From positions 41,296-105,295 of IMG/VR virus record IMGVR_UViG_3300002098_001673: 64,000 bases of DNA, one strand, 5' to 3'. This document shows, piece by piece, positions 40,109-58,446 of this stretch. Source of the stretch: a virus. The translations under genes were made by a program, and so were the position numbers. Numbering within the stretch: position 1 is the first letter of the stretch; every line of letters begins with the position of its first letter. The notes beneath the pieces were generated by a model. It was given only the letters and a program-made list of their open reading frames with translations, searched no databases and was not told the origin of the DNA.

Positions 40109-40279
40109 ATGGGTAAATATTATGAAAATTTAGGAGATTTAAACAAATTGGTTAAAAAATTAGATAAAAAAAATAATTTATCTGAATTTATTTTATCTTG
40201 TTTAATTTTTGCAAAAGAACATCCTGAAATGAGTATTCACGAAATTATAAAAAAATCTAAAGAAAAATGGGACAAATGA
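40109..40279 (+). CDS. Small hypothetical protein (not in ORF track)
   Basis: 56 aa MGKYYENLGD...KEKWDK*, fills the gap with an ATGA overlap to the next gene. Confidence 0.55.
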   Translation: MGKYYENLGDLNKLVKKLDKKNNLSEFILSCLIFAKEHPEMSIHEIIKKSKEKWDK

Positions 40280-41916
40280 TAACTGTAGGTTATTCAACAA
40301 GAAAATCAAATCCTGAATTTACAGAATATTTGAAAAAAAGTTCTGGATTTAAAAAAATTAATGTTATTGAAAAAATAAATAATGGTGAGAAATCATTGTC
40401 TCAAGTTTATAATGAAATATTATCTGAATCTACAACTGACATAATTGTTTTTTGTCATGACGACATTTATTTTGATACTCCTGGTTGGTATTATAAATTA
40501 CTAAAACATTTTCAAAAAACTGATTATGGTATTTTAGGAGTTGCAGGAACAACAGATATGTCAGAAACTGGTAGATGGTGGGAGACAAATAAAAGAAAAA
40601 ACATGATTGGAATTGTTAATCATGAAAGTGGTGGTAAAAAATGGACATCAAAATATTCTGAAGATTTTAATAACGGTATTAAACAATCTGTAATTGTTGA
40701 TGGACTTTTTATTGCAGTTAATAAACAAAGAATTAAAAGTAATTTTATTGAATCTTTTAAAGGGTTTCACTTTTATGACATTTCTTTTTGTTTTGAAAAT
40801 CATATACAAGGGGTTAAAGTTGGGGTTATCACAAATGTTAGAATTACACATAAATCTATCGGAGAAACTAATGAACAATGGGAAGAAAATAGAATTCAAT
40901 TTGCCGAAAAATATAAAAATAACTTCCCTGCAAAAGTACCTTTTGACCCAAATAAAAGGATAAAAGTTTTATTATCTTGTTTATTTTTCGGAGGATTTAC
41001 TGGTTCTGAATTATATGTATTTGAACTCGCTAAAAGTTTAATGAAACTTAATTGCAGTGTTACTGTATTGTCTCAAATAGGAGGTCCATTAACAGATATG
41101 GCAAAAAAAATAGGAATTAAATGTTTATCCTATGAGAACGCTCCAGGGTTTAAATTAGGTGATGGGGTTTGGTCATTTAATGGACCAAACGGAAAAGAAG
41201 TTTCAAAATTAAATACATTATATAAAATATCAGATGTTGATTTTGATATAATACATGTCCAACATAAACCAGTCGCTGAAAGAATTCTTGGTATGTATCC
41301 TGACATAAATATGATTTGTACAATACACTCTGAAGTAATGTCTAAAAATCTTGAGGACCCAATTATCAATAATTCAATAAAAAAATACATCGCAATTAGA
41401 CCTGAAATTAAAGAACATCTTATCAATAATTTTGATATTCCTGAGAATATGATTGAAATCATTTACAATCCTATTGATAATGAAAAATTTAAACATAAAG
41501 ATATTAAAGAAGAAAATTGTTTAGTTTTTGTTGGAACAATTGATTATTTGAGAGAAAAGGCGATTAAAGATTTGATTGAAAAAACAAAAAATGATGGATT
41601 GGAATTATGGCTAATTGGTGAGAATAAATCAAATTATTTGGAAGATATTTTACAAAATTCGCATGTGAAACATTTTCCTCCAACATGGAATGTAGAGCAG
41701 TATGTTACCAAATGTAAAGAAACTGCAGGAATACAATTAGGAAGAACCACAATTGAGGGATGGATGTGTAATAAACCTGGATGGATATATAAAGTAGATT
41801 CTAATGGTGATATTTTAGAAATAACTAAAAATGAGCCACCCTCCGACATTGAAAAGTATTATTCATTAAATGTTGCCAATCAAATAAAAGAAGAATATAT
41901 TAAAATATTATCATGA
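40276..41916 (+). CDS. Bifunctional GT-A + GT-B glycosyltransferase
   Basis: VFCHDD, VDGLF, FHFYD in N half; TGSELYVFELA, GRTTIEGW in C half. Confidence 0.8.
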   Translation: MITVGYSTRKSNPEFTEYLKKSSGFKKINVIEKINNGEKSLSQVYNEILSESTTDIIVFCHDDIYFDTPGWYYKLLKHFQKTDYGILGVAGTTDMSETGRWWETNKRKNMIGIVNHESGGKKWTSKYSEDFNNGIKQSVIVDGLFIAVNKQRIKSNFIESFKGFHFYDISFCFENHIQGVKVGVITNVRITHKSIGETNEQWEENRIQFAEKYKNNFPAKVPFDPNKRIKVLLSCLFFGGFTGSELYVFELAKSLMKLNCSVTVLSQIGGPLTDMAKKIGIKCLSYENAPGFKLGDGVWSFNGPNGKEVSKLNTLYKISDVDFDIIHVQHKPVAERILGMYPDINMICTIHSEVMSKNLEDPIINNSIKKYIAIRPEIKEHLINNFDIPENMIEIIYNPIDNEKFKHKDIKEENCLVFVGTIDYLREKAIKDLIEKTKNDGLELWLIGENKSNYLEDILQNSHVKHFPPTWNVEQYVTKCKETAGIQLGRTTIEGWMCNKPGWIYKVDSNGDILEITKNEPPSDIEKYYSLNVANQIKEEYIKILS

Positions 41917-43073
41917 AAATTGGTGTTATTGGTGCCGAAAAAGAAGGACTTGCGTTTTCACTCATATGTAAAAAAAACGGATACAATGTGATGATTTCAG
42001 ATGAAGATGAAAATTTAATTTTGAATCTAAATCAAGGAATTTATTTACCAAATGATAATAGTATTAAAAAACTTTTATTTGAAATCGGTACTTCACCAAC
42101 AACAACATCAGTTATAGATATAATAAAACATAGTGATATTATTTTTGTATTTGTTCAAACCCCTTTAAATATTGATGGATATTATGATACGAAAAATATT
42201 TTTGATGTATTAAAATATTTTTACGATTGTTCTTCTTTAGATATTCCATTGTATGATAAAAAGTTTGTTATTTGTTCTTCAACAAATATTGGTGAAGTAG
42301 AAGAAATACAAAAAAGATTATCTATGTTCAGTATTCAAGTGGCATATAATCCGTTCTTTGTATATGAAGATAATACTGTGAATCAAATTGAGGAATCGGA
42401 CATCGTTTTAATTGGAACTGAATTTGAAACATTATCAAATGATTTAATCAATTTATATCGTAAAATTCAAACAAAATCAGTTAACGCATTTGTAATGTCT
42501 ACAAAAGCGTCTGAGATGACCAAATTATCAATAAACTCTATGGTTGCTTATAAACTATCGTATTCTAATATGATAGGTGATATTGCAACTAAAATGGGGT
42601 TTAAAGACGAAATAAATTTAATATTCAAAGCTATAGGTAATGATAAAAGAATCGGTGAAAAATCTTTAAATTATAATTTTGGATTTGATGGACCACATTT
42701 ACATGGGGATAATAAATCATTAAATTATTTTATAAAAAAAATAGAAATAGATAACGGCTTAATTCAAGGTGTTGAAAATTTTAATGAGTCACATTTAATT
42801 TTTTTAAAAAATTATTATCTAAATTTAAATCCAGATAAAACTATACCATTTATTATTGATGGGATAGGTTTTAAAAAAACAAATAATACAATTGAGAATT
42901 CTAAAAAATATCAACTTTGTATTTCTTTATTAGAAGAGGGATATACTTTATATGTTATTAACAACGAAAAAATAACAAAAGATTTAAATGATTTGAGTGA
43001 ATCTTATAACAATAGAATTAAGTTTTTTAAAATAAACTCAAATTTAAAAGGATGTAAAATTAAAATAAATTAA
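41913..43073 (+). CDS. UDP-glucose/GDP-mannose dehydrogenase-like protein, degenerate active site
   Basis: IFVFVQTP, YNP, SEMTKL..N, DKRIG, GIGFK match the family; Rossmann GxGxxG reads GAEKEG and catalytic GGxC reads DGPH. Confidence 0.75.
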   Translation: MKIGVIGAEKEGLAFSLICKKNGYNVMISDEDENLILNLNQGIYLPNDNSIKKLLFEIGTSPTTTSVIDIIKHSDIIFVFVQTPLNIDGYYDTKNIFDVLKYFYDCSSLDIPLYDKKFVICSSTNIGEVEEIQKRLSMFSIQVAYNPFFVYEDNTVNQIEESDIVLIGTEFETLSNDLINLYRKIQTKSVNAFVMSTKASEMTKLSINSMVAYKLSYSNMIGDIATKMGFKDEINLIFKAIGNDKRIGEKSLNYNFGFDGPHLHGDNKSLNYFIKKIEIDNGLIQGVENFNESHLIFLKNYYLNLNPDKTIPFIIDGIGFKKTNNTIENSKKYQLCISLLEEGYTLYVINNEKITKDLNDLSESYNNRIKFFKINSNLKGCKIKIN

Positions 43074-43078
43074 ATAAT

Positions 43079-43795
43079 ATGAAATTAAGAGTATTAATCA
43101 TAAATTTAAATAATAAAAATTATACAACTAATTGTATTAACTCATTATTTAATCAAAAATTTAATGAATTCAAAATAACATTATTTGACCAAAATTCTAA
43201 TGAAGAAGGGACTAATGAAATGTTGGATTATTTTGAAAGTAAAAATGTTGATGTTATTAGAAATAAAACAAACGACCCTGTAAATTCTGTTTGGAATTGG
43301 TTTTATAAAAATCATACGGAGGACATTTTATGTTTTTTAAATAATGATGTTTTAATTCATAATAATTTTATATCAGATGTTATTCATGTTTTTGAAAACG
43401 AATTAAATGTCGGTATTGTTGTACATTCTACAAATCATGATGACTTTACAACAAAAAAGGATATTGTTGAGTATAAAATTGTTGAACCAAAAAAATACAT
43501 GCAAGGATGGGATTTTAGTATTAGAAGAGAATTATTTACTTTAATACCTGAGATATTAAAAACTTATTGTGGCGATGATTTTATTTTTTATAATTTATAT
43601 AATAAAGGTTTTGATTTAGCATATATCACCAGTTCGCCTATGATTCATTTCGAGGGTCAGAGTAAACCTTTTATGATTCACGGTGGATATATTGATACGA
43701 TAAATTATTTAAAATTAGGATTACCTCATAATTTAATGATTAATCCAAACTATTCAAAAATAAAACCCAATAAAATTTTTATCACTAATGGATAA
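43079..43795 (+). CDS. GT2 glycosyltransferase
   Basis: DQNS, FLNNDV, YCGDD. Confidence 0.8.
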   Translation: MKLRVLIINLNNKNYTTNCINSLFNQKFNEFKITLFDQNSNEEGTNEMLDYFESKNVDVIRNKTNDPVNSVWNWFYKNHTEDILCFLNNDVLIHNNFISDVIHVFENELNVGIVVHSTNHDDFTTKKDIVEYKIVEPKKYMQGWDFSIRRELFTLIPEILKTYCGDDFIFYNLYNKGFDLAYITSSPMIHFEGQSKPFMIHGGYIDTINYLKLGLPHNLMINPNYSKIKPNKIFITNG

Positions 43796-44381
43796 CGATA
43801 TTATAGATATTGTTGCGGTAACATACGGACAGAATGAAATATTAAAATGTTTTATCAATTCAATAAAAGCGCAAACCAATAATAACTGGAGACTTTTTTT
43901 GATTCATGATGGTAAAAATAATGAATTACATAATGATTTGAGAGAAAATGGTTACCTAAATGAAAATGTTATTTTTATAGAATATCCTGAAAGAACTATG
44001 AATTATGGTCATTCTTTAAGAAAATGGGCTTTGGAAAATTTAGTGACCAATGAATATGTTCTTTTAACTAATGGGGATAATTACTATACACCAAATATGG
44101 TTAGTGAAGTATTAAATAAAAAAGAGGATTTAATATATTTTGATTGCGTTCACTCACACAATAACATAATGAATCATAATAAATCTTCATATGGTTACAT
44201 GAATAGTATTTTATCTATTTCTAATATCGATATGGGATGTGTTGTTGTTAGAACTAGTATTGCTAAATCTGTAGGATTTAATTCGATTGGATTTGCAGCA
44301 GATTGGAATTATTTTAGTGATGTAATTAAAAAAAATCCCTCAATAATAAAAATAAACAAAATCTTGTTTGTTCATAACTAA
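43788..44381 (+). CDS. GT2 glycosyltransferase
   Basis: IHDG, GHSLR, NGDNYY, AADW. Confidence 0.8.
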   Translation: MDNDIIDIVAVTYGQNEILKCFINSIKAQTNNNWRLFLIHDGKNNELHNDLRENGYLNENVIFIEYPERTMNYGHSLRKWALENLVTNEYVLLTNGDNYYTPNMVSEVLNKKEDLIYFDCVHSHNNIMNHNKSSYGYMNSILSISNIDMGCVVVRTSIAKSVGFNSIGFAADWNYFSDVIKKNPSIIKINKILFVHN

Positions 44382-44395
44382 AAAAAATAAAACTG

Positions 44396-44884
44396 ATGGA
44401 TTTAATAAATTTTAAAAATAAAGACTATCCATATTTTCAGTCTATAGGATACGCCTCTCAATTTGCAATACCATACGCAAAATTTTTTTGTAAAGGAATT
44501 GGTTATGATATTGGATGTAAGAGAATTGAATGGTCTTTTCCTGGTTCAATACCAATTGACCCTGTAATTAATGAAAAATATGACGCAACCAACTTACCAA
44601 ACAATAATGTTGATTACATTTTCTCAAGTCATTGTTTAGAACATTTAACTGATTGGGTTTCCGTTTTAGATTATTGGTACGATTCTATAAAAGAAGAAGG
44701 AGTAATTTTTCTTTATCTTCCCAGTTATTCGCAAGAATATTGGAGACCTTGGAATAATAAAAAACATGTTAACATTTTTACACCTCAAATAATTTCAGAT
44801 TATTTCAATCATAAGAATATGAAAAATATTTTTTATAGTGGGATTGATTTGAATAACTCCTTTATGATTGTTGCGGAAAAATGA
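44396..44884 (+). CDS. Class I SAM methyltransferase
   Basis: YDIGC, DYIFSSHCLEH, LYLP. Confidence 0.8.
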   Translation: MDLINFKNKDYPYFQSIGYASQFAIPYAKFFCKGIGYDIGCKRIEWSFPGSIPIDPVINEKYDATNLPNNNVDYIFSSHCLEHLTDWVSVLDYWYDSIKEEGVIFLYLPSYSQEYWRPWNNKKHVNIFTPQIISDYFNHKNMKNIFYSGIDLNNSFMIVAEK

Positions 44885-45585
44885 AATACATATTTAATCA
44901 ATATCAAGGATTGGGGGATATTTTATTTTGTGAACCTATTGCCAAATATTTTTATGAAGATGGGAATAATGAAATTTTATGGCCAGTAAATGATGAGTTT
45001 ATGTGGTTAACTGACTACATAAAATATATTAATTTTGTTCCTAAATCAAGTTGTAATATTAATTACGAATCATTACATTTGGGGTTACTTGATTCAAATA
45101 CATATTTTGTACCATTACGATTTGCAAATCCAATTGTTAGGAAATTAAGACCTCACGATTATTCTGACCAATATCACACAATGTTAGATAAATATAGGAT
45201 GTTAAATCTTCCTGAAGATATGTGGAGAACATTTAAATGGGAAAGAAATTTAACTAAAGAAAATGAACTTTATGATTTACTAATAAAAGATGAAAACTAT
45301 ATATTAGTTAACGGTAAATGGAGTGATGGTAATGTTGAAATTAAAACTGAATCTAATTTTAAAAGAATTGAAATGAGTATTTTAAACGGATTCTCATTAT
45401 TTGATTGGTCTAAAATTATTGAAAATGCTTTGGAAATTCATACTGTATCCACATCAAATTTATTTTTATTAGAAACTTTAAAATTAAAAACTGATAAAAT
45501 TAATATCTACCTAAGAAAACCAAGAGAAAATAATTTTGACGGTATATCTGAATTTGTTAATAAAAATTTTAAATTGATTTTATAA
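44881..45585 (+). CDS. Putative glycosyltransferase (GT-B-like)
   Basis: QGLGDILF N-terminal motif; IIENALEIHTVSTS. Confidence 0.55.
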   Translation: MKYIFNQYQGLGDILFCEPIAKYFYEDGNNEILWPVNDEFMWLTDYIKYINFVPKSSCNINYESLHLGLLDSNTYFVPLRFANPIVRKLRPHDYSDQYHTMLDKYRMLNLPEDMWRTFKWERNLTKENELYDLLIKDENYILVNGKWSDGNVEIKTESNFKRIEMSILNGFSLFDWSKIIENALEIHTVSTSNLFLLETLKLKTDKINIYLRKPRENNFDGISEFVNKNFKLIL

Positions 45586-45586
45586 A

Positions 45587-46330
45587 ATGAAAATTAACTC
45601 TTATGGAATAAATTTTATTTTTAATAATCAAAAAAATAAAAAAATACCTAATTTTGATTGGTTTATCGATGTGTTAAAAAAACAAATATGGGAACCTGAA
45701 ACTTTTAAAATTTTTAATAAATTTAAAGATAAAGATAAAATTGCCATTGATATTGGAGGATGGATTGGTCCTACAACAATTTTTTTATCTAAAATCTTTA
45801 AAGAAGTAATAACAATTGAAGCAGATATTATCGCTTTTGAGTCATTATCCGAAAATATTAAAGATAATTTTTGTGAAAATGTTACTTTGCATAATAAAGC
45901 GTTCCATAACAGTAAAACTAATAATATTTTTTTTGGTGTTAATAATTTTGAATTTGACTCTATTTTAGGTTCATCAACAAGTCAGACTAAAACTGAAAAA
46001 AAAATAGATAATGATTATTTAATCGATACAATTAATATTATTAATTTAATAGAAAATATTGACCCATATAACATAGGTTTAATAAAAGTTGATATTGAGG
46101 GTGGTGATGAAGATGTTTTTGAAGAATTAATTTTATTTGGTTCTAAATATGGGTGGAAAATATGGATTTCATTTCATTATGAATGGTGGAAAGATAAAAA
46201 TATTAAAAAATTTGAACACTTAATACCTTTGATAAAAAAAGTTAGTATAAATAGTGATGAAATATTAAAAAATGATTTGTTATCATTAATAAAAAAAAAT
46301 GTACCAGAATCATTTCTAATTGAACTATAA
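45587..46330 (+). CDS. FkbM-family methyltransferase
   Basis: WEPET, IDIGGWIG, IKVDIEGG. Confidence 0.85.
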   Translation: MKINSYGINFIFNNQKNKKIPNFDWFIDVLKKQIWEPETFKIFNKFKDKDKIAIDIGGWIGPTTIFLSKIFKEVITIEADIIAFESLSENIKDNFCENVTLHNKAFHNSKTNNIFFGVNNFEFDSILGSSTSQTKTEKKIDNDYLIDTINIINLIENIDPYNIGLIKVDIEGGDEDVFEELILFGSKYGWKIWISFHYEWWKDKNIKKFEHLIPLIKKVSINSDEILKNDLLSLIKKNVPESFLIEL

Positions 46331-46339
46331 ATTTATAAA

Positions 46340-47077
46340 ATGAAAATACACTCATACATCGTTGCATATAATGAAGAAAAATTATTACCATTCACTTTAG
46401 ATTATTATTCTATTTTCTGTGAAAAAATATTTATTTACGATAATTTTTCAACAGACTCTTCTGATGAGATTTATAAAAAATATAATAAAGTTATTGTAAA
46501 TAAATTTGATACTCAAAATACACAAGATGAAATTATTACAAGAAATATTAAATCAAATGAGTATAAAAAATATAGTAGAAATTGCGATGTTGATTGGGTA
46601 ATTATTGCCGATTGTGACGAATTTATATACCATCCTAATTTAATTGAAAAGCTTAAAGAATATAAAAAAAATGGTATCACAGTGGCTCAAACAAGTGGAC
46701 ATGAAATGGCTAGTGTAACATTTCCCGAATATGATGGACAATTATTGCCAAACATAATTAAAATAGGTTCTGAAAAAATGAAAATGTTATCTAAAAATAC
46801 TATTTTTAATCCAAATATTGATATTAATTTTGGTATAGGAACACATAATTTTACTTCCAATAATACAGTTTTATCCCCTAACGATGATATTAAAATTTTG
46901 CATTACAAGTGTTTAGGTAAAGAATATGTTACTAACATATATAAAGAACGATTTAAAAGATTAAGCCATTCAAGTAAAATGAACGCATGGAATACTCATT
47001 ATTCTAAAATAGATGAATTTATAAAACTGATGGATGATATCTTAGAAAAAAATAAAAATGTTGTAGATAATTTATAA
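46340..47077 (+). CDS. GT2-like glycosyltransferase
   Basis: YNEEKLLP, YDNFSTD, DWVIIADCDEF, LHYK. Confidence 0.8.
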   Translation: MKIHSYIVAYNEEKLLPFTLDYYSIFCEKIFIYDNFSTDSSDEIYKKYNKVIVNKFDTQNTQDEIITRNIKSNEYKKYSRNCDVDWVIIADCDEFIYHPNLIEKLKEYKKNGITVAQTSGHEMASVTFPEYDGQLLPNIIKIGSEKMKMLSKNTIFNPNIDINFGIGTHNFTSNNTVLSPNDDIKILHYKCLGKEYVTNIYKERFKRLSHSSKMNAWNTHYSKIDEFIKLMDDILEKNKNVVDNL

Positions 47078-47742
47078 TGATACCAGTAACATTTACTATT
47101 ACTTCCTGTAATAGAATTGATTTATTAAAAAAAACAATAGATAGTTTTACATCAATTAACAATTATATAATTGATGAATTTATATTATCTGATGATTCTG
47201 ATAATACAGAAATTTCAAATCATATAAAAATTAATTACGGAGATAAATTTAAAATAATTTCAAACTCACCAAGAATAGGACTCTCAAAAAGTTTGGATAA
47301 TTTATTTAAAACTTCAAAAAATGAATTTATTTTTCATTGCGAGGATGATTGGATGTTTGATAGTAATCCTAATTTAATTAATAATTCTTTAGATATATTA
47401 AATGAAAATCCAGATATACATCAAGTAAGTGTTAGGCACGCTTATAATAGTCCTCATAAACCTATTGGAGATAAACTATATACTAGTACATCGGTAGAAT
47501 ATTGGATTTTAAGTCAAGAATTCAGAAGTATGCCAACACAAGTATGGAATGGGTATAGTTGGAACCCTGGATTAAGGCGTAAATCAGATTATTTAAAAAT
47601 GTTTCCTAACGGTTTATCCGAATTTGGTGATGAATATAATTGCGCCGATTATGTAAGAAAATTTAACTATAAATCCGCAGCATTGGTTAATACTTCTTGT
47701 TATCATTTAGGAATAGAAAGGACTAAAAATTTTATATTATAA
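47077..47742 (+). CDS. GT2-like glycosyltransferase
   Basis: TSCNR.DLL, FHCEDDW, SWNPGLRR. Confidence 0.8.
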   Translation: MIPVTFTITSCNRIDLLKKTIDSFTSINNYIIDEFILSDDSDNTEISNHIKINYGDKFKIISNSPRIGLSKSLDNLFKTSKNEFIFHCEDDWMFDSNPNLINNSLDILNENPDIHQVSVRHAYNSPHKPIGDKLYTSTSVEYWILSQEFRSMPTQVWNGYSWNPGLRRKSDYLKMFPNGLSEFGDEYNCADYVRKFNYKSAALVNTSCYHLGIERTKNFIL

Positions 47743-47753
47743 AATATTATAAC

Positions 47754-49043
47754 ATGGATTTATTAATAAATGGAAAATTTGTTAAAGTCATAGAATATGA
47801 AACAGATATTAATGGATTAAAATTCAGGCCTCAATTTGATATAAATTACAATAATGATGCTGATTGGGAATCATTTACTTTGTCTCACACACAAGAAGTA
47901 TCCCAAAGAAATTATAATCTTGTAAAAGAAATAACATCAAATTATATGACTCATGGTATCATGGAAATTGGTATTTCCAGAAATGGTGATGGGTCTTTTA
48001 CAAATGCAATTTTAAATAACAAACCAAATAACATACCTTATTTAGGTGTTGATATAGAAGATAAAACATATTTAAATAATGAATTTAAAAAAATTTTCAC
48101 AATTAAAGAAAATTCATTTAATCAAAGAACTGTTAGAAATTATGCAAAAAAAATAGGATTAGAAAAAATATCAATACTTTTTATTGACGGTTGGCATTCT
48201 TTAAATGCTGCGATAAATGATTGGATGTATTCTGATATGTTATCAGATAATGGTATTGTAATAATTCACGACACAAATGGGCATCCGGGTCCATATGTTC
48301 TTATGGAATCAATAGATGAAACAAAATATAGAATAGAAAAACATTTCCAAAATGAAGATGATTATGGTATTGGAATTGCATATAAATTAAATAATAATTT
48401 ACGACAAATTTTTAGAAATTATGGTTCATACGGTAGAATTGAATTAAATGAAGACCATTGTGGACCAGGGTCAACTTTATGGTATACTCAACCAATTCGT
48501 AATCAATTACTTCCTTTATTAAAAAAATATAATATTAATAGTATATTAGATGCTCCTTGTGGAGATTTCCAATGGATGAGTAAAATTAATTTCCCTCAAG
48601 AATTCGATTATTTAGGTGGGGATTTACATGAATCTTTAATAGAAAGAAATAGAAAATTATATAAAAAAAATTTTATGGTAATTGATATTACAGAAGATAT
48701 ATTACCATCAAAAGATTTACTCTTTGTGAGAGATTGTCTATTTCATTTAACCGATGAATTTAAATTAAAATTTTTTAAAAATTTTTTATCATCTAATTTC
48801 AAATACATATTAACAAGTAATCATCCTAAACACAATTATAATAAAGATGTTAGTATTTCGATGGATGGTCATTTTCATGAAAACATTAATTGGGAATTAC
48901 CTCCTTGGAATTTTCCAAAATCAATAGACACTATTATAGATTATGATGAAAAAAATTCTAATTTTTTATATTACCCATATAGAACAATGGAATTATGGTC
49001 ATTTGAACAAATAAAGTCGGTGTTTAAAGATTATTTTATATGA
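47754..49043 (+). CDS. Two-domain SAM methyltransferase fusion
   Basis: Domain 1: MEIG, LFIDGWH, IIHD; domain 2: GPGST, ILDAPCGDFQW, RDCLFHL. Confidence 0.75.
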   Translation: MDLLINGKFVKVIEYETDINGLKFRPQFDINYNNDADWESFTLSHTQEVSQRNYNLVKEITSNYMTHGIMEIGISRNGDGSFTNAILNNKPNNIPYLGVDIEDKTYLNNEFKKIFTIKENSFNQRTVRNYAKKIGLEKISILFIDGWHSLNAAINDWMYSDMLSDNGIVIIHDTNGHPGPYVLMESIDETKYRIEKHFQNEDDYGIGIAYKLNNNLRQIFRNYGSYGRIELNEDHCGPGSTLWYTQPIRNQLLPLLKKYNINSILDAPCGDFQWMSKINFPQEFDYLGGDLHESLIERNRKLYKKNFMVIDITEDILPSKDLLFVRDCLFHLTDEFKLKFFKNFLSSNFKYILTSNHPKHNYNKDVSISMDGHFHENINWELPPWNFPKSIDTIIDYDEKNSNFLYYPYRTMELWSFEQIKSVFKDYFI

Positions 49044-49471
49044 TACTAATATCTCATAGAGGAAATATTAATGGAAAAAATTCTGATAGAGAAAACTCAA
49101 TAGAATATATCGAAGAAGCTCTTGATATGGGTTATAATGTTGAAATTGATGTTTGGGTTATTGATAATAAATTTTATTTGGGTCATGATAATCCACTTTA
49201 TGAAGTGGATTTTTTATTTTTAATTAATAATAAATTATGGTGCCATGCAAAAAATTTAGAAGCGTTATTAAAAATGAAAAATTATGATATAAATTGTTTT
49301 TGGCATGAAAATGACGAATTTACTCTTACTTCAAAAAATTACATATGGAGTTATCCAAGAAAAGAAAGTTGTGAAAATACTATTGTGGTTATGCCAGAAA
49401 TATTTAACACTAATATCGATAATTGTTTAGGAATTTGTTCTGATTTTATTGCAAATTATAAAGAACATTAA
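49040..49471 (+). CDS. Short GDPD-like phosphodiesterase
   Basis: ISHRGN, EN, VEIDVW, LGHD, WCHAKN, GICSD. Confidence 0.7.
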   Translation: MILISHRGNINGKNSDRENSIEYIEEALDMGYNVEIDVWVIDNKFYLGHDNPLYEVDFLFLINNKLWCHAKNLEALLKMKNYDINCFWHENDEFTLTSKNYIWSYPRKESCENTIVVMPEIFNTNIDNCLGICSDFIANYKEH

Positions 49472-49522
49472 AATCGTATACTTTTTAATAATCATGATTA
49501 ATTTTATACAAAATATATTATT

Positions 49523-50242
49523 GTGGTTAATGTAATAATACCAATGGCAGGTGCAGGAAGAAGATTTTATGACGCAGGGTATACAATACCAAAACCATTT
49601 ATCCCCGTTTTCAAAAAACCAATGGTACAATCAGTTGTTGAAAATTTAAATATTAATGGAAATTATATTTTTATAATTCAAAAACAACATTCAATTGGTA
49701 ATAATTTAGAAATTTTTTTAAACAGTATTAGTCCAGGATGTGTGATAATTTCAATAGATGAATTAACCGATGGACCCGCATGTACCGCCTTATTAGCTGA
49801 AAAATATATTGACGATAATCCATTGATTATTGTTAATTGTGACCAAATAATACACGACTTTGATGTGAATAAATTACTTGAATTTAGTGAAAAAAATAAT
49901 GCTGATGGTATTTTAGGTGCATTTATTTCTTCTTCAAAGAAAAATTCTTACATGAAATTAGACCCCCATGGTGAAGTAACCGAAGTAAAAGAAAAAATTG
50001 TTATAAGTAATATTGCAACTAATGGATTACATTTTTGGAAAAATGGTAAAGATTTTATATCTTCTGCTAAAGAAATGATTTTATCAGGTGAAAAATATAA
50101 TAATGAATTTTATATTGCACCATCTTATAATCATTTAATAAAATTAAATAAAAAAATATTACCATACTTCTATAATTTACATTTTCCAATAGGAACTCCT
50201 GAAGATTTAAAAATTTATCAAAACTTATATGGATATAATTAA
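49523..50242 (+). CDS. Sugar nucleotidyltransferase (NTP_transferase family)
   Basis: IPMAGAGRRF...PKP, GPACT, NCD, EK, NEFYIAP, GTPEDL; GTG start. Confidence 0.85.
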   Translation: MVNVIIPMAGAGRRFYDAGYTIPKPFIPVFKKPMVQSVVENLNINGNYIFIIQKQHSIGNNLEIFLNSISPGCVIISIDELTDGPACTALLAEKYIDDNPLIIVNCDQIIHDFDVNKLLEFSEKNNADGILGAFISSSKKNSYMKLDPHGEVTEVKEKIVISNIATNGLHFWKNGKDFISSAKEMILSGEKYNNEFYIAPSYNHLIKLNKKILPYFYNLHFPIGTPEDLKIYQNLYGYN

Positions 50243-50549
50243 AATGAAAACTATGTTGGGTGGGTGGTTTATAGGAAACTTTGAACCATCAGCATACAAA
50301 ACAGACCAGTTTGAAGTTTGTTATAAACATCATTATAAAGGTGAAAAATGGGATTCTCATTATCATAAAGAAAGTACTGAAATAAATTATTTGGTTAATG
50401 GAAAAATGATTATTCAAAACAAAGAATTAAACACTGGAGATATATTCATATTAAAACCTTATGAAATTGCTGACCCGGTCTTTATTGAAGATTGTACAGT
50501 TTTAATTGTTAAAACTCCATCAGTACCTAAAGATAAATATATTATATAA
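50229..50549 (+). CDS. Cupin-fold protein
   Basis: GWFIGNF, HYHK..TEINY...G, GDIFIL.P. Confidence 0.75.
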   Translation: MDIIKMKTMLGGWFIGNFEPSAYKTDQFEVCYKHHYKGEKWDSHYHKESTEINYLVNGKMIIQNKELNTGDIFILKPYEIADPVFIEDCTVLIVKTPSVPKDKYII

Positions 50550-50550
50550 T

Positions 50551-51735
50551 ATGGTAGATATTTTTAGAGAAAATGTAGATACAGAAAAATATTTTATAGT
50601 TACATATTATTTGGAATCCCAAAGTAATTTAAGAGACGCATCTTGGAATTTAGCTATAGGTCAAAGTGTTGGTAATCCAAACGTAAGAAATCAATGGGAA
50701 ACCGATGAATTATTTGAAAATCACTCCTGCATTATATTAGATTATGAATTAAGATTAGAAACACTCTCTAAAGGAATTGTAAAAATCGCCTTCCCTATTA
50801 TTAATATAGATTTTAAAACTGATGGTATTTCACATCTGTTAGTTAATATAATGGGGGGACAGATGGATATTGATAATATTAATAAATGCTCTGTAATAGA
50901 TATCGAATTTCCAAAATCAGTAAAAGATTGTTTTTTAGGTCCCAAATTCGGAATTAATGGTATAAGAGAATATACAAAAGTTTTTAATAAACCATTGTTA
51001 GGTGCAATTATAAAACCAAAAACAGGTATCTCACCAAAGGTCCTTTTAGAAATGGTTAAAGAACTAGTTGATGGTGGGGTTAATTTTATTAAAGAAGATG
51101 AAATAATGAGTAATCCTTCTTTTTGTAAAATAGAAGAAAGAGTTCCATTAATAATGGATTATCTAAAAGATAAAAATGTAATTTACTGTGTTTCAATTCA
51201 TTCTGATTATCCATACATAATTGATAGAGTTAAACAAGTATATGAGTTAGGTGGTAATGGAGTCCACGTTAATTTTTGGTGTGGTGTTGGAGTATATAAA
51301 GCAATTAGAGAATTAGACCTTCCAATATTTGTTCATTTTCAAAAATCAGGAGATAAAATCATAACCAATAAGAATCATGATTTTCATATTGATTGGAGAG
51401 TTATCTGCAAATTGGCAGGAATGATGGGGGTCGATTTTATTCATGCAGGTATGATTGGTGGGTATTATAAATGGGATGAAATTGAAACAATTGATGCCGT
51501 AAAAATTTTAAACGAACATAATGTAATGCCAGCTTTAAGTTGTGGATTTCATCCTGGATTAACTAAATGGGTTACAGATAAAATTGGTACTGACTATATG
51601 GCAAATGTTGGTGGAGCGATTCACGGACATCCTAATGGTACTACAGATGGAGCAAAAGCCATGAGACAAAGTATTGATGGTATTTACAAAAAAGAATATG
51701 AAAGAGCAATACATAAATGGGGTAAAATATATTAA
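50551..51735 (+). CDS. RuBisCO-like protein (form IV)
   Basis: GPKFG, IIKPKTG, GGVNFIKEDE, HAG, SCG, GGAIHGHPNG...GAKAMRQ; no loop-6 Lys; probable start 50551. Confidence 0.9.
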   Translation: MVDIFRENVDTEKYFIVTYYLESQSNLRDASWNLAIGQSVGNPNVRNQWETDELFENHSCIILDYELRLETLSKGIVKIAFPIINIDFKTDGISHLLVNIMGGQMDIDNINKCSVIDIEFPKSVKDCFLGPKFGINGIREYTKVFNKPLLGAIIKPKTGISPKVLLEMVKELVDGGVNFIKEDEIMSNPSFCKIEERVPLIMDYLKDKNVIYCVSIHSDYPYIIDRVKQVYELGGNGVHVNFWCGVGVYKAIRELDLPIFVHFQKSGDKIITNKNHDFHIDWRVICKLAGMMGVDFIHAGMIGGYYKWDEIETIDAVKILNEHNVMPALSCGFHPGLTKWVTDKIGTDYMANVGGAIHGHPNGTTDGAKAMRQSIDGIYKKEYERAIHKWGKIY

Positions 51736-51755
51736 TTTAAACTAAAAAACAAATA

Positions 51756-52490
51756 ATGGGTAGACAAATGAAAAAGAACACAGTACAAATACCGGCAATT
51801 GAAAGTTCAGTAAAAAAAACTAAAAAACAATTAATCAACAACATTATTAAGAAAAAAACAAAAGATAAGTTTTTAAGTGAAAGTCAAAAAGAGTATTATG
51901 ATAAGTTATCTAAAAATCAAATCACTCTTTGTTCTGGTCCCGCAGGCGTTGGTAAAAGTTATATAGCTATGAAATGCGCTGTAGACCTTTTAATTGACCC
52001 AGAAACTTCATATGAAAAAATAATCATTGTTCGTCCCGCAGTTGAAGCCGAAGAAAAATTAGGTTCATTACCAGGTAATGTAGAAGAAAAACTAGACCCG
52101 TATATTTTTCCTTCGTATTATCTTTTAAATAAAATAATTGGTAAAGAAATTAGAGAAAAATTAAAAGAAATTGAAGCGATTGAAGTTTTTGCTTTAGCAT
52201 ATATGAGAGGTATGAATATTGATAATTCAATATTAATATTTGAAGAAGCACAAAATTCGACTCCAAGTCAAATGAAATTACTTCTAACAAGAATAGGATT
52301 TAATTCTAAATTTTTTATTTCTGGAGATTTGGAACAATTTGATAGACATAAAGATAAAACACAAACGGGTTTGTGGGATGCATTACATAAATTTCAAAAT
52401 ATGAATGATGTTGCGACATTTGAATTTAAATCTGAAGATATTGTAAGGAATCCATTAATAACACAAATTTTAAAAAGATACGAAGAATGA
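51756..52490 (+). CDS. phoH: PhoH-family ATPase
   Basis: GPAGVGKS, RPAVE, LGSLPG, AYMRG, EAQN, LTRIG, GDLEQ, DIVRNPL. Confidence 0.95.
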   Translation: MGRQMKKNTVQIPAIESSVKKTKKQLINNIIKKKTKDKFLSESQKEYYDKLSKNQITLCSGPAGVGKSYIAMKCAVDLLIDPETSYEKIIIVRPAVEAEEKLGSLPGNVEEKLDPYIFPSYYLLNKIIGKEIREKLKEIEAIEVFALAYMRGMNIDNSILIFEEAQNSTPSQMKLLLTRIGFNSKFFISGDLEQFDRHKDKTQTGLWDALHKFQNMNDVATFEFKSEDIVRNPLITQILKRYEE

Positions 52491-53080
52491 GAATTGGAAT
52501 TGAGTTAAATGGTGTATTAAGAGACACTTTAAAAAAAATACAACAGGAATACGAAAAATGGTACATAGAAAATCCATTTAAAGAAGAAACTGAATTTGAG
52601 TATAAAGTTATTTCTGATTTAACATCATTAAATATAATGAATCATTTATCATTTAAAAATGATGACGAACTTTATGATTTTTTATATAAAGAACATACTA
52701 TGGAAATTTTTGGACATTCTGGTTCTGTTGAAATTTCAAGTATGATGGATTTAAATGAATTTTATTTGGATATGAGAGATTTCCATGATATTTTAATTGT
52801 TTCTGATGAAATTGGAAAATCAAAACCAGCTTCTTTATTTTTCATATCTAAATTTGGATGTTTAATAGAAACTATAAAATTTTATAGTGAATCAACAATT
52901 AATTCTATGTGGAATTCAATAGATATTTTACTTACAGCAAATCCTCAACTATTATTAAACCATCCAAAAGATAAAGAAGTGATTAAATTTAATACTTCGT
53001 ATAATAAAGATATTAATGTTACAAATTCAATATCAAATCTAAAGGAATTAACGAATAAAATTAAAGAAATATATGATTGA
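52487..53080 (+). CDS. 5'(3')-nucleotidase-like HAD-fold protein, degenerate motif I
   Basis: RIGIELNGVLRD (ExN instead of DxD), C-terminal SYN. Confidence 0.55.
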   Translation: MRIGIELNGVLRDTLKKIQQEYEKWYIENPFKEETEFEYKVISDLTSLNIMNHLSFKNDDELYDFLYKEHTMEIFGHSGSVEISSMMDLNEFYLDMRDFHDILIVSDEIGKSKPASLFFISKFGCLIETIKFYSESTINSMWNSIDILLTANPQLLLNHPKDKEVIKFNTSYNKDINVTNSISNLKELTNKIKEIYD

Positions 53081-53351
53081 AGTTTTAGGTGAAAATTATT
53101 TTATCGATTTAGACCAAATCGAAAAATATATTGATATAGGTAACATACCTGATTTTGAAATGTCAGGAGGAACAGAAATGAGAATCAATATTATAAAATA
53201 TGAAATGGTAAAAATATTATTAGAAATTATTTTAAGTGAAGATATTGAAATGGATGAAAAATTAGGAACTAAAGGGAATAGTAATATTAGTATTCCATTT
53301 AAATTAGCATTTAATAGTTTACTAAATAAAAAATTAATTAATTATTATTAA
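53073..53351 (+). CDS. Hypothetical protein
   Basis: Clean ORF in operon. Confidence 0.65.
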   Translation: MIEVLGENYFIDLDQIEKYIDIGNIPDFEMSGGTEMRINIIKYEMVKILLEIILSEDIEMDEKLGTKGNSNISIPFKLAFNSLLNKKLINYY

Positions 53352-53352
53352 T

Positions 53353-54408
53353 ATGGAAAATGAATTAAAAGAAAAAGTTAAAAACTCTATTAAAATATTA
53401 AAAGAGAAAAAAGCCAGAATTTATTTCCTTGTTCAAGACACAAAAGGAAATGCAAAGGCTTCGGTAAGATTAATTTACCAAATGGCAAAAACATTAAAAG
53501 ATAATGGATTTAATTCTATAATTCTTCATGAAAAAAATGATTACACTTCTGTATCATCTTGGTTAGGTGAAGAATATATGACAGAATTACCACACAAAGT
53601 AATTGAAGGTCAAAATCTAGAAATTTCTCCAGAAGATTTTATTATTGTTCCAGAAATTTTTGGATATATTATGGAACAAATAAAAAAATTACCTTGTGCT
53701 AAAATTGTATTAACACAATCTTACGCATATATGTTAGAAACATTACAACCAGGTCAATCTTGGAATCAATTTGGATTTTTAAAGTGTATAACAACAAGTG
53801 AGACACAAAAAGGTTATATTGAGAAAGTAATGAGACAATCTAGTTTTGATATTATTGAACCATTAATTAGTGAAGATTTTTCTCCCAAAAATTTTCCAGC
53901 AATGCCAATTATTGGCGTTCATTCTAAAGAACAAAGTGATACTATTAATTTAATAAAAACATTTTATTTGAAATTCCCACAATATAGGTGGTTTACATTT
54001 AGAGATTTAAGAGGGTTATCTCAAAAAGAATTTGCCAATTCTCTAAAAGAATGTTTTTTAAGTGTATGGATTGATAATGAAAGTGGATTTGGAACTTTCC
54101 CATTAGAATCCATGGCATCTGATGTTCCTGTTATTGGTAAAATACCTAATTTAAAACCAGAATGGATGACAGAAGATAATGGAGTTTGGATTTCAGATAG
54201 TACATTAATTACGGATTTTATTGCTGATTTTATACAAAATTGGTTAGAAGACGCTATAAATCCAGAACTATATGAACACATGAGAAATACTGTTAAAAAG
54301 TATACCAATAAACAAGAATTTGAGTCTAAAATTATTTCCACGTTTGAGGGATATATAAGTAATAGAGCAGATTCTTTTGAACAACAACTTTCTAAAACCG
54401 AAGAATAA
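53353..54408 (+). CDS. GT-B (GT4-like) glycosyltransferase
   Basis: IIVPE, SGFGTFPLESMASDVPVIG. Confidence 0.75.
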   Translation: MENELKEKVKNSIKILKEKKARIYFLVQDTKGNAKASVRLIYQMAKTLKDNGFNSIILHEKNDYTSVSSWLGEEYMTELPHKVIEGQNLEISPEDFIIVPEIFGYIMEQIKKLPCAKIVLTQSYAYMLETLQPGQSWNQFGFLKCITTSETQKGYIEKVMRQSSFDIIEPLISEDFSPKNFPAMPIIGVHSKEQSDTINLIKTFYLKFPQYRWFTFRDLRGLSQKEFANSLKECFLSVWIDNESGFGTFPLESMASDVPVIGKIPNLKPEWMTEDNGVWISDSTLITDFIADFIQNWLEDAINPELYEHMRNTVKKYTNKQEFESKIISTFEGYISNRADSFEQQLSKTEE

Positions 54409-54409
54409 T

Positions 54410-55216
54410 ATGAGTAATAAATTATCAGTTTCCGTCATATTGCCAATTAAATCATCAAAATCAAGAGATTTTTCAGAATATTTTGATAAGGCAATTAAAT
54501 CCATTCAACTACAGCAAGTTGAAGTTGAAGAAGTATTAATCATTCATACTACTGAAGAATCATTAATTAGTCATTTAGATAATTACGATTTTGGAGAATT
54601 GAATGTAAGAAAATTACTATGGGACAAAACTCCAAATTACGCCGACCAAGTTAATTTTGGTATAAAAAATTCAAATTCTACATGGGTTTCTTTATTTGAA
54701 TTTGATGATGAATATTCATCAATATGGTTTAAAAATGTTAAAAAATACATTGAATCGTATCCTGAAGTACAGATTTTTTTACCTGTTGTTGTTGAGACAG
54801 ATGATAAAAATACATTTGCCGGATTTACAAATGAGGCTACTTTTGCTGCAAATTTTGCACAAGAAATGGGATATTTAACTAATGAAACATTACAAGATTA
54901 TCAAAATTTTCAAACTGCTGGTTCTGTAATAAAAAAACAAACTATAGAAGATTTTGGAGGATTTAAACCATCCATTAAATTAACATTTATTTATGAATTT
55001 TTATTAAGATTAACATATAATTCGGTACCAATTTTAACAATACCTAAATTAGGATACAAACATGTTAATTTAAGAGAAGGTTCTATTTTCTGGAATTATA
55101 AATTTGGTGATGAAAAAATGTTAGAAGACGAAGTTAAGTTTTGGATTCAAACAGCAAAAAAAGAGTATTTTTTTGTAGATGATAGGTCCATAAAATATCA
55201 AACAGAAAACTTATAA
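54410..55216 (+). CDS. GT2-like glycosyltransferase
   Basis: VSVILPI, FEFDDEY, GGFK...EFLLR; probable start 54410. Confidence 0.75.
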   Translation: MSNKLSVSVILPIKSSKSRDFSEYFDKAIKSIQLQQVEVEEVLIIHTTEESLISHLDNYDFGELNVRKLLWDKTPNYADQVNFGIKNSNSTWVSLFEFDDEYSSIWFKNVKKYIESYPEVQIFLPVVVETDDKNTFAGFTNEATFAANFAQEMGYLTNETLQDYQNFQTAGSVIKKQTIEDFGGFKPSIKLTFIYEFLLRLTYNSVPILTIPKLGYKHVNLREGSIFWNYKFGDEKMLEDEVKFWIQTAKKEYFFVDDRSIKYQTENL

Positions 55217-55962: not shown

Positions 55963-55981
55963 TTAAAAACTATTTATCATT

Positions 55982-56347: not shown

Positions 56348-56348
56348 T

Positions 56349-58445: not shown

Positions 58446-58446
58446 T

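What the first reader, a model, noticed from the sequence alone, without database searches (positions are those of the whole stretch)
49040..51735. Phage-encoded RuBisCO-like protein in a GDPD / nucleotidyltransferase / cupin operon
Seen: a full-length RuBisCO-fold protein follows a sugar nucleotidyltransferase and a cupin with tight spacing, at the end of a glycosyltransferase island. It keeps the K175/K177 equivalents (KPKTG), has KEDE in place of KDDE, keeps the H294 and H327 equivalents, and lacks the loop-6 Lys and R295. Established: form IV RLPs do not fix CO2; characterised ones catalyse enolase, isomerase or transcarboxylase-type reactions on sugar-phosphate-like substrates (methionine salvage, apiose and hamamelose catabolism). 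Inference: here the RLP is biosynthetic, making an unusual, possibly branched-chain sugar phosphate that is nucleotide-activated for the neighbouring GTs. That would be an uncharacterised pathway carried by a virus.
Basis: partly seen in the sequence, partly recalled or inferred. Interest (0 to 1): 0.8.

Follow-up and report, generated by a model that had tools for sequence, protein, structure and literature searches.

The report
Phage RuBisCO-like sugar-activation gene cassette
A large freshwater phage carries an intact RuBisCO relative that cannot fix CO2 and is locked to, and elsewhere fused with, a sugar-activating enzyme and a small cupin, so it probably helps build an unusual activated sugar, a role never tested for this enzyme family.

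Summary
Window 50551-51735 encodes an intact 394-aa RuBisCO-fold protein in a tight same-strand block: methyltransferase, mini-phosphodiesterase, sugar nucleotidyltransferase, cupin, RLP. The block lies in a glycosyltransferase island of a fragmentary (about 36% complete) freshwater phage record.

Two residue calls were wrong. Profile alignment puts invariant Gln264 at H294, Lys265 at R295 and invariant Tyr305 at K334. The Mg/carbamate core (K175, K177, K201, D203, E204) is kept. E60, N123, H294, H298 and K334 are lost, so it is not a carboxylase.

Linkage is conserved. Of 89 related loci, 87 hold the nucleotidyltransferase, 75 the phosphodiesterase and 61 the cupin. Natural fusions exist: RLP-transferase-cupin, RLP-transferase, HAD-transferase and transferase-cupin. 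The RLP falls in a well-supported clade apart from methionine-salvage enolases.

Best reading (0.55): a donor-synthesis module in which the RLP reshapes a keto-sugar phosphate that is then nucleotide-activated. The substrate is unknown and the branched-chain idea is untested.

The phage RLP clade itself was published by Jaffe et al. 2019 (function unknown). This scan has already flagged the same cassette on at least ten other genomes. I found no paper describing the cassette.

The parts
50551..51735 (+). RuBisCO-like protein (RLP), 394 aa, 'Form IV-like' phage clade. The Mg/carbamate core is kept and the carboxylase residues are lost.
   Evidence: Pfam PF00016 1.3e-34. All NCBIfam equivalogs fall far under their cut-offs. 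Profile alignment to 8dht, 2cwx, 3a13, 1geh and 3nwr and family conservation. 99% SH-aLRT clade. dN/dS 0.056 against L001.
50229..50549 (+). Small metal-site cupin, 106 aa, with a G-x5-H-x-H-x4-E motif. Most like minimal cupin-type phosphomannose isomerases.
   Evidence: Invariant H44 and E51, with H46 conserved in at least 90% of members. Cupin_7 or Cupin_2 in 36 and 22 of 44 members. AF2 pLDDT 97. Foldseek top hits 7zvm and 7zvy, TM 0.68-0.71. Present in 61 of 89 loci. dN/dS 0.061.
49523..50242 (+). Sugar-phosphate nucleotidyltransferase, 239 aa, with an N-terminal G-x-G-x-R signature.
   Evidence: Pfam NTP_transferase 2.7e-12. NCBIfam RmlA, GlmU, GalU, MurU and HddC all under their cut-offs. 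PDB 4evw 2.2e-10 and RmlA about 1e-9. Present in 87 of 89 loci. Fused to the RLP in P0122, P0272 and P0273. dN/dS 0.068.
49040..49471 (+). Miniature GDPD-superfamily phosphodiesterase-like protein, 143 aa, with an HRG..EN..E.D..GHD motif.
   Evidence: Invariant H6, R7, E18, N19, E35, D37, H49, H69, K71 and H89. Profile against PDB GDPDs 7.8e-5. AF2 pLDDT 96.6. In VIA-wide the top 22 rows are GDPD or PLD-type phosphodiesterases or GDPD-like domains, Z 10.5-7.8, against at most 6.3 for other TIM barrels. Present in 75 of 89 loci. Fused to a DUF7796/WavE-like protein in L005.
47754..49043 (+). Two-domain methyltransferase-like protein. Residues 1-216 are the conserved Methyltransf_24-like partner of the cassette. 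The C-terminal half is a second SAM-MT-like domain.
   Evidence: Pfam Methyltransf_24 3e-4. Residues 1-216 match 196-230-aa proteins in 26 loci. About 616 bp (48418-49033) are absent from the closest relative L001. The family occurs only in cupin-bearing loci, 22 of 54 against 0 of 21.
40267..47742 (+). Variable glycosyltransferase and methyltransferase island upstream of the cassette: GT2/GT4 fusion, UDP-glucose-dehydrogenase-like gene, four GT2 genes, Methyltransf_23 and FkbM methyltransferases.
   Evidence: Pfam hits. There is no DNA similarity to L001 upstream of 47729, while 47729-59725 is collinear at 85-88%.

Best explanation
The five genes at 47754-51735 form a conserved donor-synthesis module inside a phage glycan island.

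Shown: the RLP keeps the carbamylated-Lys/Asp/Glu metal site and both flanking lysines, but lacks every residue specific to CO2 addition.

Inferred steps:
1. The RLP binds a keto-sugar phosphate and enolises it, giving an epimer or a carbonyl-shifted isomer rather than a carboxylation product.
2. The small cupin acts as an aldose-ketose type isomerase on the same sugar phosphate.
3. The nucleotidyltransferase couples the product to an NMP, giving an activated donor.
4. The Methyltransf_24-like enzyme methylates it in about a third of cassettes.
5. The neighbouring, strain-variable glycosyltransferases use the donor.
6. The miniature GDPD-like enzyme works at the transfer or processing stage on a phosphodiester. 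This would fit a donor transferred as a sugar phosphate, as with CDP-ribitol or CDP-glycerol.

The substrate, the nucleotide and the final acceptor are unknown.
For: Linkage: 87, 75 and 61 of 89 related loci carry the transferase, the GDPD-like protein and the cupin within a few kb, in varying order.

Fusions: RLP-transferase-cupin (P0272, P0273), RLP-transferase (P0122), HAD-transferase (L004, and L012 by its length), transferase-HAD (L024) and transferase-cupin (L031, L032, L035, L036). The GDPD-like protein is fused instead to a DUF7796/WavE-like putative transferase (L005).

Active site: K155, K157, K181, D183, E184, S330, G332 and G354 are invariant. G355 (35 of 37) and H298 (33 of 37) are nearly so. 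E60 is Gly, N123 is Gly, H294 is Gln, H298 is Asp and K334 is Tyr.

Cupin: the closest solved folds are minimal cupin phosphomannose isomerases. The transferase-plus-cupin arrangement mirrors bifunctional GDP-mannose pyrophosphorylase/PMI enzymes (established knowledge).

Context: neighbours across 75 distinct loci are an SDR epimerase/dehydratase (25 loci), methyltransferases (23 and 20), radical SAM/SPASM (7), a DegT aminotransferase (6) and GT2 genes. In the window, six glycosyltransferase genes lie upstream of the cassette and one more lies downstream.

Selection: all four genes are under purifying selection, dN/dS 0.06-0.13.

Position: the cassette sits on the conserved side of a junction with a swapped glycosyltransferase region.
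Against: No biochemical data exist for any member. The core set contains no mutase or kinase, so how a nucleotidyltransferase substrate arises is unexplained, although a HAD domain appears in a few loci. About a quarter of loci lack the cupin and carry a different 242-aa protein instead, so the cupin step is not universal. In one Verrucomicrobiae chromosome (L087) the RLP-transferase-cupin trio is flanked by a fatty-acid desaturase and a flavoprotein, not by glycan genes. Cupin and GDPD folds are too versatile for fold matches to fix a reaction. No expression data were available.
Confidence: 0.55

Rival explanations
1. The module makes the same kind of activated sugar, but the acceptor is phage DNA (base hypermodification, as with glucosyl- or arabinosyl-hydroxymethylcytosine) rather than a surface or virion glycan.
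For: The element is a phage. The cassette abuts PhoH (51756-52490). An earlier first-reader note on this window (e1-6050808, not checked here) places nucleotide-metabolism genes beside the island. Sugar-modified DNA is established in T4-like phages (own knowledge).
Against: The cassette also occurs in MAGs assigned to cellular organisms, namely a Verrucomicrobiae chromosome and CPR genomes. Seven glycosyltransferase genes and several methyltransferases fit a polysaccharide better than a DNA mark. No thymidylate-synthase or dCMP-hydroxymethylase homologue is in the 105-kb record, but that record is only 36% complete, so this is weak.
Confidence: 0.12
2. The module is a salvage or catabolic auxiliary pathway. 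The RLP plus cupin (plus HAD) would act as in methionine salvage (MtnW, MtnX, MtnD) or the Rhodospirillum MTA-isoprenoid shunt (RLP isomerase plus cupin methylsulfurylase), recycling methylthio- or deoxy-pentose phosphates during infection.
For: RLP, cupin and occasional HAD are the same three folds used in those pathways (own knowledge of Bacillus and R. rubrum biochemistry). MtnW is among the best solved matches (2oek, 1.1e-35). The phage encodes many SAM-dependent methyltransferases.
Against: The clade is separated from MtnW-like representatives with 99-100% SH-aLRT. Scores are 153 and 134 bits against MtnW cut-offs of 409 and 514. MtnW Lys98 aligns to Gln104. No MtnA-, MtnB- or MtnK-type genes appear among recurrent neighbours. 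The near-universal, sometimes fused partner is a nucleotidyltransferase, which has no place in those pathways.
Confidence: 0.1
3. The module makes a nucleotide-linked small molecule that is not a glycan building block, such as a cofactor-like or signalling metabolite, or one used against host defence.
For: Nucleotidyltransferases of this fold also activate non-sugar phosphates (own knowledge). A distant RLP is fused to a TIR domain (P0175). The L087 context lacks glycan genes.
Against: Glycosyltransferases and sugar-tailoring enzymes dominate the neighbourhoods. The transferase's closest relatives are sugar-1-phosphate enzymes.
Confidence: 0.1
4. It is a working CO2-fixing RuBisCO (form III-like) that boosts host carbon or nucleotide metabolism.
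For: The best NCBIfam and PDB matches by score are form III enzymes. The metal site and K175/K177 are intact.
Against: E60, N123, H294, H298 and K334 are all replaced, invariantly so for G37, Q264 and Y305. The score is 185 bits against a form III cut-off of 497. No AMP phosphorylase or ribose-1,5-bisphosphate isomerase is among the neighbours.
Confidence: 0.01

Closest known systems
'Form IV-like' RuBisCO-related proteins of phages and Beckwithbacteria (Jaffe, Castelle, Dupont & Banfield 2019, Mol Biol Evol; PMC6389311)
   Same: Both are phage-borne RLPs from large phages in diverse environments, divergent from all RLP clades, and group with Beckwithbacteria sequences. Here L084 (Candidatus Beckwithbacteria MAG) falls in the same 99%-supported clade.
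   Different: That paper left the function open. In the passages read here it mentions no nucleotidyltransferase, cupin or phosphodiesterase partners, no fusions and no glycan-island context. Those are what this analysis adds.
MtnW/YkrW 2,3-diketo-5-methylthiopentyl-1-phosphate enolase (Bacillus and Geobacillus; PDB 2oek, 2zvi)
   Same: Both share the RuBisCO fold, the carbamylated-Lys/Asp/Glu metal site and enolisation chemistry without carboxylation. The match is 1.1e-35.
   Different: The window protein lies in a separate clade and far under the equivalog cut-offs. The catalytic Lys98 position is Gln. The gene partners are different.
Form III RuBisCO of archaea (T. kodakarensis 1geh/3a13; 8dht, 2cwx)
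   Same: These give the highest profile scores (1.6e-62 to 4e-58). K175, K177, K201, D203, E204, H327, S379, G381 and G403/404 are shared.
   Different: E60, T65, W66, N123, H294, H298 and K334 are replaced. There is no AMP-pathway context.
Bifunctional mannose-1-phosphate guanylyltransferase / type II phosphomannose isomerase (ManC, AlgA, XanB) and minimal cupin PMIs of Thermococcus (7zvm, 7zvy)
   Same: The architecture is the same: NTP_transferase followed by a cupin, found as separate genes here and fused in L031, L032, L035, L036, P0272 and P0273. The cupin's best fold matches are cupin PMIs.
   Different: No match to the PMI-specific Pfam family was listed. Identity to the PMIs is only about 20%. 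An RLP is added, which no ManC system has.
Glycerophosphodiester phosphodiesterases (GDPD; 1o1z, 7e0v; phage K gp155 C-terminal domain)
   Same: The catalytic HRG / E.D / HD motif and the barrel topology are shared: Z 10.5, with 135 of 143 residues aligned across the whole barrel.
   Different: It has about 60% of the length of solved GDPDs, lacks most helices and is not recognised by Pfam. Nearly all its relatives are viral hypothetical proteins.

Membership tests
RuBisCO large-subunit superfamily | N-terminal alpha+beta domain plus C-terminal TIM-barrel catalytic domain (PF02788 and PF00016) | tested here: met
   PF00016 scores 120 bits against a cut-off of 30. PF02788 scores 20.1 against 20.7. 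The profile covers residues 11-392 of 8dht-type chains.
RuBisCO superfamily, shared enolisation core | Carbamylatable Lys201 with Asp203 and Glu204 metal ligands, plus Lys175 and Lys177 | tested here: met
   K181, D183, E184, K155 and K157 are invariant in 37 family members and align to these positions.
Bona fide carboxylase (forms I-III) | Glu60, Asn123, His294, His298 and loop-6 Lys334, which are needed for CO2 addition and hydration | tested here: not met
   The aligned residues are G37, G103, Q264, D268 and Y305. rubisco_III scores 185 bits against a cut-off of 497.
MtnW / YkrW DK-MTP-1-P enolase | Score above the NCBIfam equivalog cut-off, and grouping with MtnW in a tree | tested here: not met
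   Scores are 153 against 409 (NF007095) and 134 against 514 (TIGR03332). MtnW-like representatives P0158 and P0171 lie in a separate 100%-supported clade.
MtnW / YkrW DK-MTP-1-P enolase | N-domain catalytic Lys98 (G. kaustophilus numbering; its role is from my own knowledge of Imker et al. 2007) | tested here: not met
   In the phmmer alignment to 2oek, Lys98 pairs with Gln104. The position is Gln in 30 of 37 members and His in 4.
OiaX 3-oxo-isoapionate-4-phosphate decarboxylase | Score above the NCBIfam equivalog cut-off | tested here: not met
   143 bits against a cut-off of 700.
Form IV-like phage/Beckwithbacteria clade (Jaffe 2019) | Phage-borne, groups with Beckwithbacteria RLPs, lies outside the classical RLP clades | tested here: met
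   The clade of 29 rows (99% SH-aLRT) includes L084 (Beckwithbacteria) and L082 (Patescibacteria). 193 IMG/VR contigs carry relatives.
Sugar-1-phosphate nucleotidyltransferase (PF00483) | Pfam domain over its cut-off, with the N-terminal G-x-G-x-R loop | tested here: met
   47 bits against a cut-off of 21. The motif is visible in the alignment to 4evw. No NCBIfam equivalog cut-off is reached, so the specificity is unknown.
GDPD family (PF03009) | Catalytic His-Arg, Glu/Asp metal ligands and a second His | tested here: met
   H6, R7, E35, D37 and H49 are invariant and align to the GDPD motif in 7e0v and 3i10. GDPD-type chains fill nearly all the top VIA rows, Z 10.5-7.8.
GDPD family (PF03009) | Recognition by the Pfam model; a full-length (beta/alpha)8 barrel of about 220 aa or more | tested here: not met
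   1 of 47 members matches, at E 0.033. The protein has 143 aa against 217-330 in the solved GDPDs.
Type II phosphomannose isomerase (cupin PMI) | Cupin with a metal site and PMI-specific sequence family | tested here: inconclusive
   Invariant H44 and E51 with H46 at 90% or more. The best fold matches are Thermococcus PMIs, TM about 0.7 at about 21% identity. Only generic cupin Pfam families match.

The most novel reading that the evidence does not exclude
The RLP is the committed enzyme of an undescribed nucleotide-sugar (or sugar-phosphate donor) pathway. That would be the first anabolic, glycan-building role for the RuBisCO superfamily. It would use carbamate/Mg enolisation to make a rare epimeric, keto or branched sugar phosphate that is then nucleotide-activated. 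The pathway would be widespread in aquatic phages, with copies in CPR bacteria and other cellular genomes.
Probability: 0.45. Interest if true: 0.8.

Novelty: new variant of a known kind. Interest (0 to 1): 0.62.

Why it matters
All characterised members of the RuBisCO superfamily either fix CO2 or act in salvage and catabolism of sugar phosphates. A branch wired to a nucleotidyltransferase, and in some proteins fused to it, inside glycan loci would give the fold a new biosynthetic job. It would probably also define a new activated sugar.

The family is abundant. More than 2,500 database clusters match, and 193 IMG/VR contigs carry it, so the product could be a common feature of phage or infected-cell surfaces in lakes and oceans.

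The question is directly testable with four or five small soluble proteins and a panel of sugar phosphates.

Tried and rejected
Neighbourhoods came from the search for related loci instead.
- tblastn of the RLP against 50,697 deposited phage genomes found nothing, so no cultured phage carrier is at hand.
- Complex prediction of RLP with the nucleotidyltransferase gave no support (score 0.00). This is not evidence either way.
- The look-up of sequencing runs listed only freshwater DNA metagenomes and no RNA holder.
- Pfam and NCBIfam gave nothing for the GDPD-like protein. The 242-aa protein that replaces the cupin had no PDB sequence match and only language-model leads to WavE/DUF7796. HMMs of that family and of the family fused to the GDPD-like gene find no member in the window.
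- Thymidylate-synthase/dCMP-hydroxymethylase and T4 gp23 families were not found in the 105-kb record. The record is 36% complete, and the gp23 control rang nowhere, so this is uninformative.
- The promoter and terminator scan found no more sites than shuffled sequence.
- Literature searches for RLP with nucleotidyltransferase and cupin, or with polysaccharide and nucleotide sugar, found no paper on the cassette.
- The single-sequence alignments gave three different registers for the HFQK segment. I rejected them in favour of the consistent profile register.

Full report
**What is there**

The window is phage DNA. It encodes a tail sheath, a family-B DNA polymerase and a large helicase. It lies in an IMG/VR virus record of 105,295 b that CheckV rates 36% complete, so the genome is probably much larger than the record. 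G+C is 23-33%.

The polymerase has only relatives at 26% identity or less among deposited phages, so there is no close cultured relative. Near-identical DNA occurs in freshwater metagenomes.

From 40267 to 58445 the long ORFs all lie on the + strand. The block of interest, with overlaps or gaps of 51 nt or less, is:
- 47754-49043, methyltransferase-like
- 49040-49471, 143 aa
- 49523-50242, NTP_transferase
- 50229-50549, cupin
- 50551-51735, RLP

PhoH follows 20 nt after the RLP. It accompanies the RLP in only 5 of 89 related loci, so I do not count it as part of the module.

**The RLP**

Pfam RuBisCO_large matches at 1.3e-34. Every NCBIfam equivalog falls far below its cut-off: form III 185 against 497, MtnW 153 against 409 and 134 against 514, OiaX 143 against 700.

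A profile of 37 family members aligns in one consistent register to four form III RuBisCOs and one RLP. Combined with family conservation, the map in spinach numbering is as follows.

Kept:
- K175 = K155
- K177 = K157
- K201 = K181
- D203 = D183
- E204 = E184
- H327 = H298 (33 of 37)
- S379 = S330
- G381 = G332
- G403/404 = G354/355

Changed:
- E60 to G37
- T65 to N42
- W66 to P43
- N123 to G103
- T173 to A (Gly in most members)
- H294 to Q264 (invariant)
- R295 to K265 (Lys or Arg in 34 of 37)
- H298 to D268
- K334 to Y305 (invariant)
- G380 to C331

'H294 kept, R295 lost' is a register error. The His in HFQK pairs with H292 and is Phe in 10 of 37 members.

The enolisation core is intact and the carboxylation apparatus is gone. 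MtnW's Lys98 pairs with Gln104.

**Where it belongs**

A search of 1.8 billion representatives shows a step in score. Full-length clade members score about 250 bits or more. The nearest other full-length RuBisCO or RLP representatives score 178 bits or less, at 31-35% identity. Those others are a mix of near-form-III and MtnW-like proteins.

A quick maximum-likelihood tree of 110 rows puts the window protein in a 29-row clade with 99% SH-aLRT support. The clade also holds:
- metagenomic representatives of the same score class
- Beckwithbacteria and Patescibacteria MAGs
- a Verrucomicrobiae chromosome
- a Pelagibacteraceae single-cell assembly
- Sphingobacteriales and Balneola MAGs

MtnW-like rows form a separate 100%-supported clade. 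This matches the 'Form IV-like' phage and Beckwithbacteria clade that Jaffe et al. described in 2019 with unknown function.

The tree is a quick search without bootstraps and without curated references, so the deeper placement stays open.

**Conserved linkage**

193 IMG/VR contigs, up to 294 kb long, and 9 MAG or genome contigs encode a relative. Among the 89 fetched loci, counts of the window's partner genes near the RLP are:
- nucleotidyltransferase: 87
- 143-aa protein: 75
- cupin: 61
- Methyltransf_24-like protein: 26

Gene order varies between loci, which argues for selection on the linkage rather than simple inheritance.

Natural fusions tie the enzymes together:
- RLP-transferase-cupin: P0272 and P0273, about 815 aa
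- RLP-transferase: P0122
- HAD-transferase: L004, confirmed by Pfam; L012 has a 457-aa homologue and is inferred from length only
- transferase-HAD: L024
- transferase-cupin: L031, L032, L035 and L036

The 143-aa protein is fused to a different partner, a DUF7796/WavE-like putative transferase (L005). This suggests two stages: donor synthesis (RLP, transferase, cupin, sometimes HAD) and transfer or processing (GDPD-like protein plus transferase).

Against the closest relative L001, dN/dS is 0.056 for the RLP, 0.068 for the transferase, 0.061 for the cupin and 0.13 for the GDPD-like gene.

**The partners**

- **Nucleotidyltransferase.** It has the G-x-G-x-R loop. It is closest to a Vibrio NDP-sugar pyrophosphorylase (4evw) and to RmlA.
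- **Cupin.** It has an H-x-H...E metal motif. The model is confident (pLDDT 97). It resembles the minimal cupin phosphomannose isomerases of Thermococcus most closely (TM about 0.7), then KdgF and other small cupins.
- **143-aa protein.** It carries the GDPD catalytic motif. The model has pLDDT 96.6. In an exhaustive structural comparison the top 22 rows are almost all GDPD or PLD-type phosphodiesterases (Z 10.5-7.8, about 136 of 143 residues aligned across the whole barrel). Unrelated TIM barrels reach at most 6.3. It is a stripped-down GDPD barrel, and nearly all its relatives are viral.
- **Methyltransferase ORF.** Residues 1-216 are the conserved partner. The second SAM-MT-like half corresponds to about 616 bp that are absent from L001.

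**Context and variants**

Upstream in the window lie a GT2/GT4 fusion, a UDP-glucose-dehydrogenase-like gene, four GT2 genes and two more methyltransferases. Another GT2 lies downstream.

Window and L001 are collinear at 85-88% identity from 47729 onward and unrelated before that point. The cassette therefore sits on the conserved side of a junction with a swappable glycosyltransferase region.

Across 75 distinct loci the recurrent neighbours are:
- an SDR epimerase/dehydratase: 25 loci
- Methyltransf_24-like: 23
- FkbM methyltransferase: 20
- radical SAM/SPASM: 7
- DegT aminotransferase: 6
- GT2 genes

Two cassette variants appear:

| Feature | Cupin-bearing loci (54) | Cupin-less loci (21) |
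|---|---|---|
| Methyltransf_24-like | 22 | 0 |
| 242-aa WavE/DUF7796-like protein | 1 | 12 |
| FkbM methyltransferase | 7 | 13 |

In the Sphingobacteriales MAG the RLP sits with radical SAM, GT8-like and Methyltransf_24 genes. In the Verrucomicrobiae chromosome the flanks are ordinary cellular genes.

**Interpretation**

The best-supported reading is a donor-synthesis module. The RLP enolises a keto-sugar phosphate and releases an epimer or carbonyl-shifted isomer. This chemistry is known as RuBisCO side reactions and as the reactions of characterised RLPs. The cupin then performs an aldose-ketose type isomerisation, the transferase adds the nucleotide, a methyltransferase often tailors the product, and the variable glycosyltransferases use it.

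The GDPD-like enzyme and its fusion to a putative transferase would be explained if the unit is transferred as a sugar phosphate. Every one of these steps is inference. Only the residue pattern, the linkage, the fusions and the context are shown.

I put this reading at 0.55. The rivals are a DNA acceptor (0.12), salvage or catabolism (0.10), a non-glycan nucleotide-linked metabolite (0.10) and true carboxylation (0.01).

**Novelty**

Phage RLPs of this clade are published. The cassette, its fusions and its glycan context were not found in the searchable literature.

This scan has already noted and followed up the same cassette on at least ten other genomes, with the same conclusion. The window adds another member, from a large freshwater phage lineage with no cultured relative. 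It also adds the two-variant pattern and the junction position.

Noticed in passing
P0175 (583 aa; domains): A distant RuBisCO/RLP homologue (31% identity to the window RLP) is fused to an N-terminal TIR_2 domain. This architecture suggests a defence or signalling role for another RLP branch.
   Followed up: no
P0160 and P0186 (726 and 742 aa): These are IF-2B-family (ribose-1,5-bisphosphate or MTR-1-P isomerase type) domains fused to a full RuBisCO. That would join two consecutive steps of the archaeal AMP pathway in one protein.
   Followed up: no
window 48418-49033: A segment of about 616 bp is present in the window but absent from the closest relative L001. It adds a second SAM-methyltransferase-like domain in frame to the conserved Methyltransf_24-like gene.
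   Followed up: partly
window 47729 (junction); L001:5790: Window and L001 are collinear (85-88% identity) downstream of this point and unrelated upstream. The upstream glycosyltransferase and methyltransferase island therefore behaves as a swappable cassette. L001 carries an SDR epimerase/dehydratase there instead.
   Followed up: partly
L038, L040, L048-L054 and similar loci, gene directly after the RLP (e.g. L054:8285-9013): A 242-aa protein with no Pfam or PDB sequence match (WavE/DUF7796-like by language-model lead only) replaces the cupin in 12 of 21 cupin-less cassettes. It travels with an FkbM methyltransferase.
   Followed up: partly
window 10381-14337 (+): A 1318-aa ORF matches PHROG families annotated as terminase large subunit or primase over its N-terminal part (about residues 130-540) and a DNA helicase family over its C-terminal part. 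This is an unusually large composite protein.
   Followed up: no
window 4854-8066 (-): A 1070-aa ORF matches tail-sheath families only over its last 220-260 residues. The long N-terminal part is unassigned.
   Followed up: no
window 26908-28173 (-): A glycosyltransferase matches phrog_24687 at 2.8e-163. It sits in a separate minus-strand block of ORFs at 19922-30126, which may be a second glycan-related region.
   Followed up: no
L087:8001-10227 (Verrucomicrobiae chromosome, 2.28 Mb): An RLP-transferase-cupin trio sits in a cellular chromosome. It is flanked by a fatty-acid desaturase, an HI0933-like flavoprotein and an outer-membrane beta-barrel protein, with no phage or glycan genes among those checked.
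   Followed up: partly
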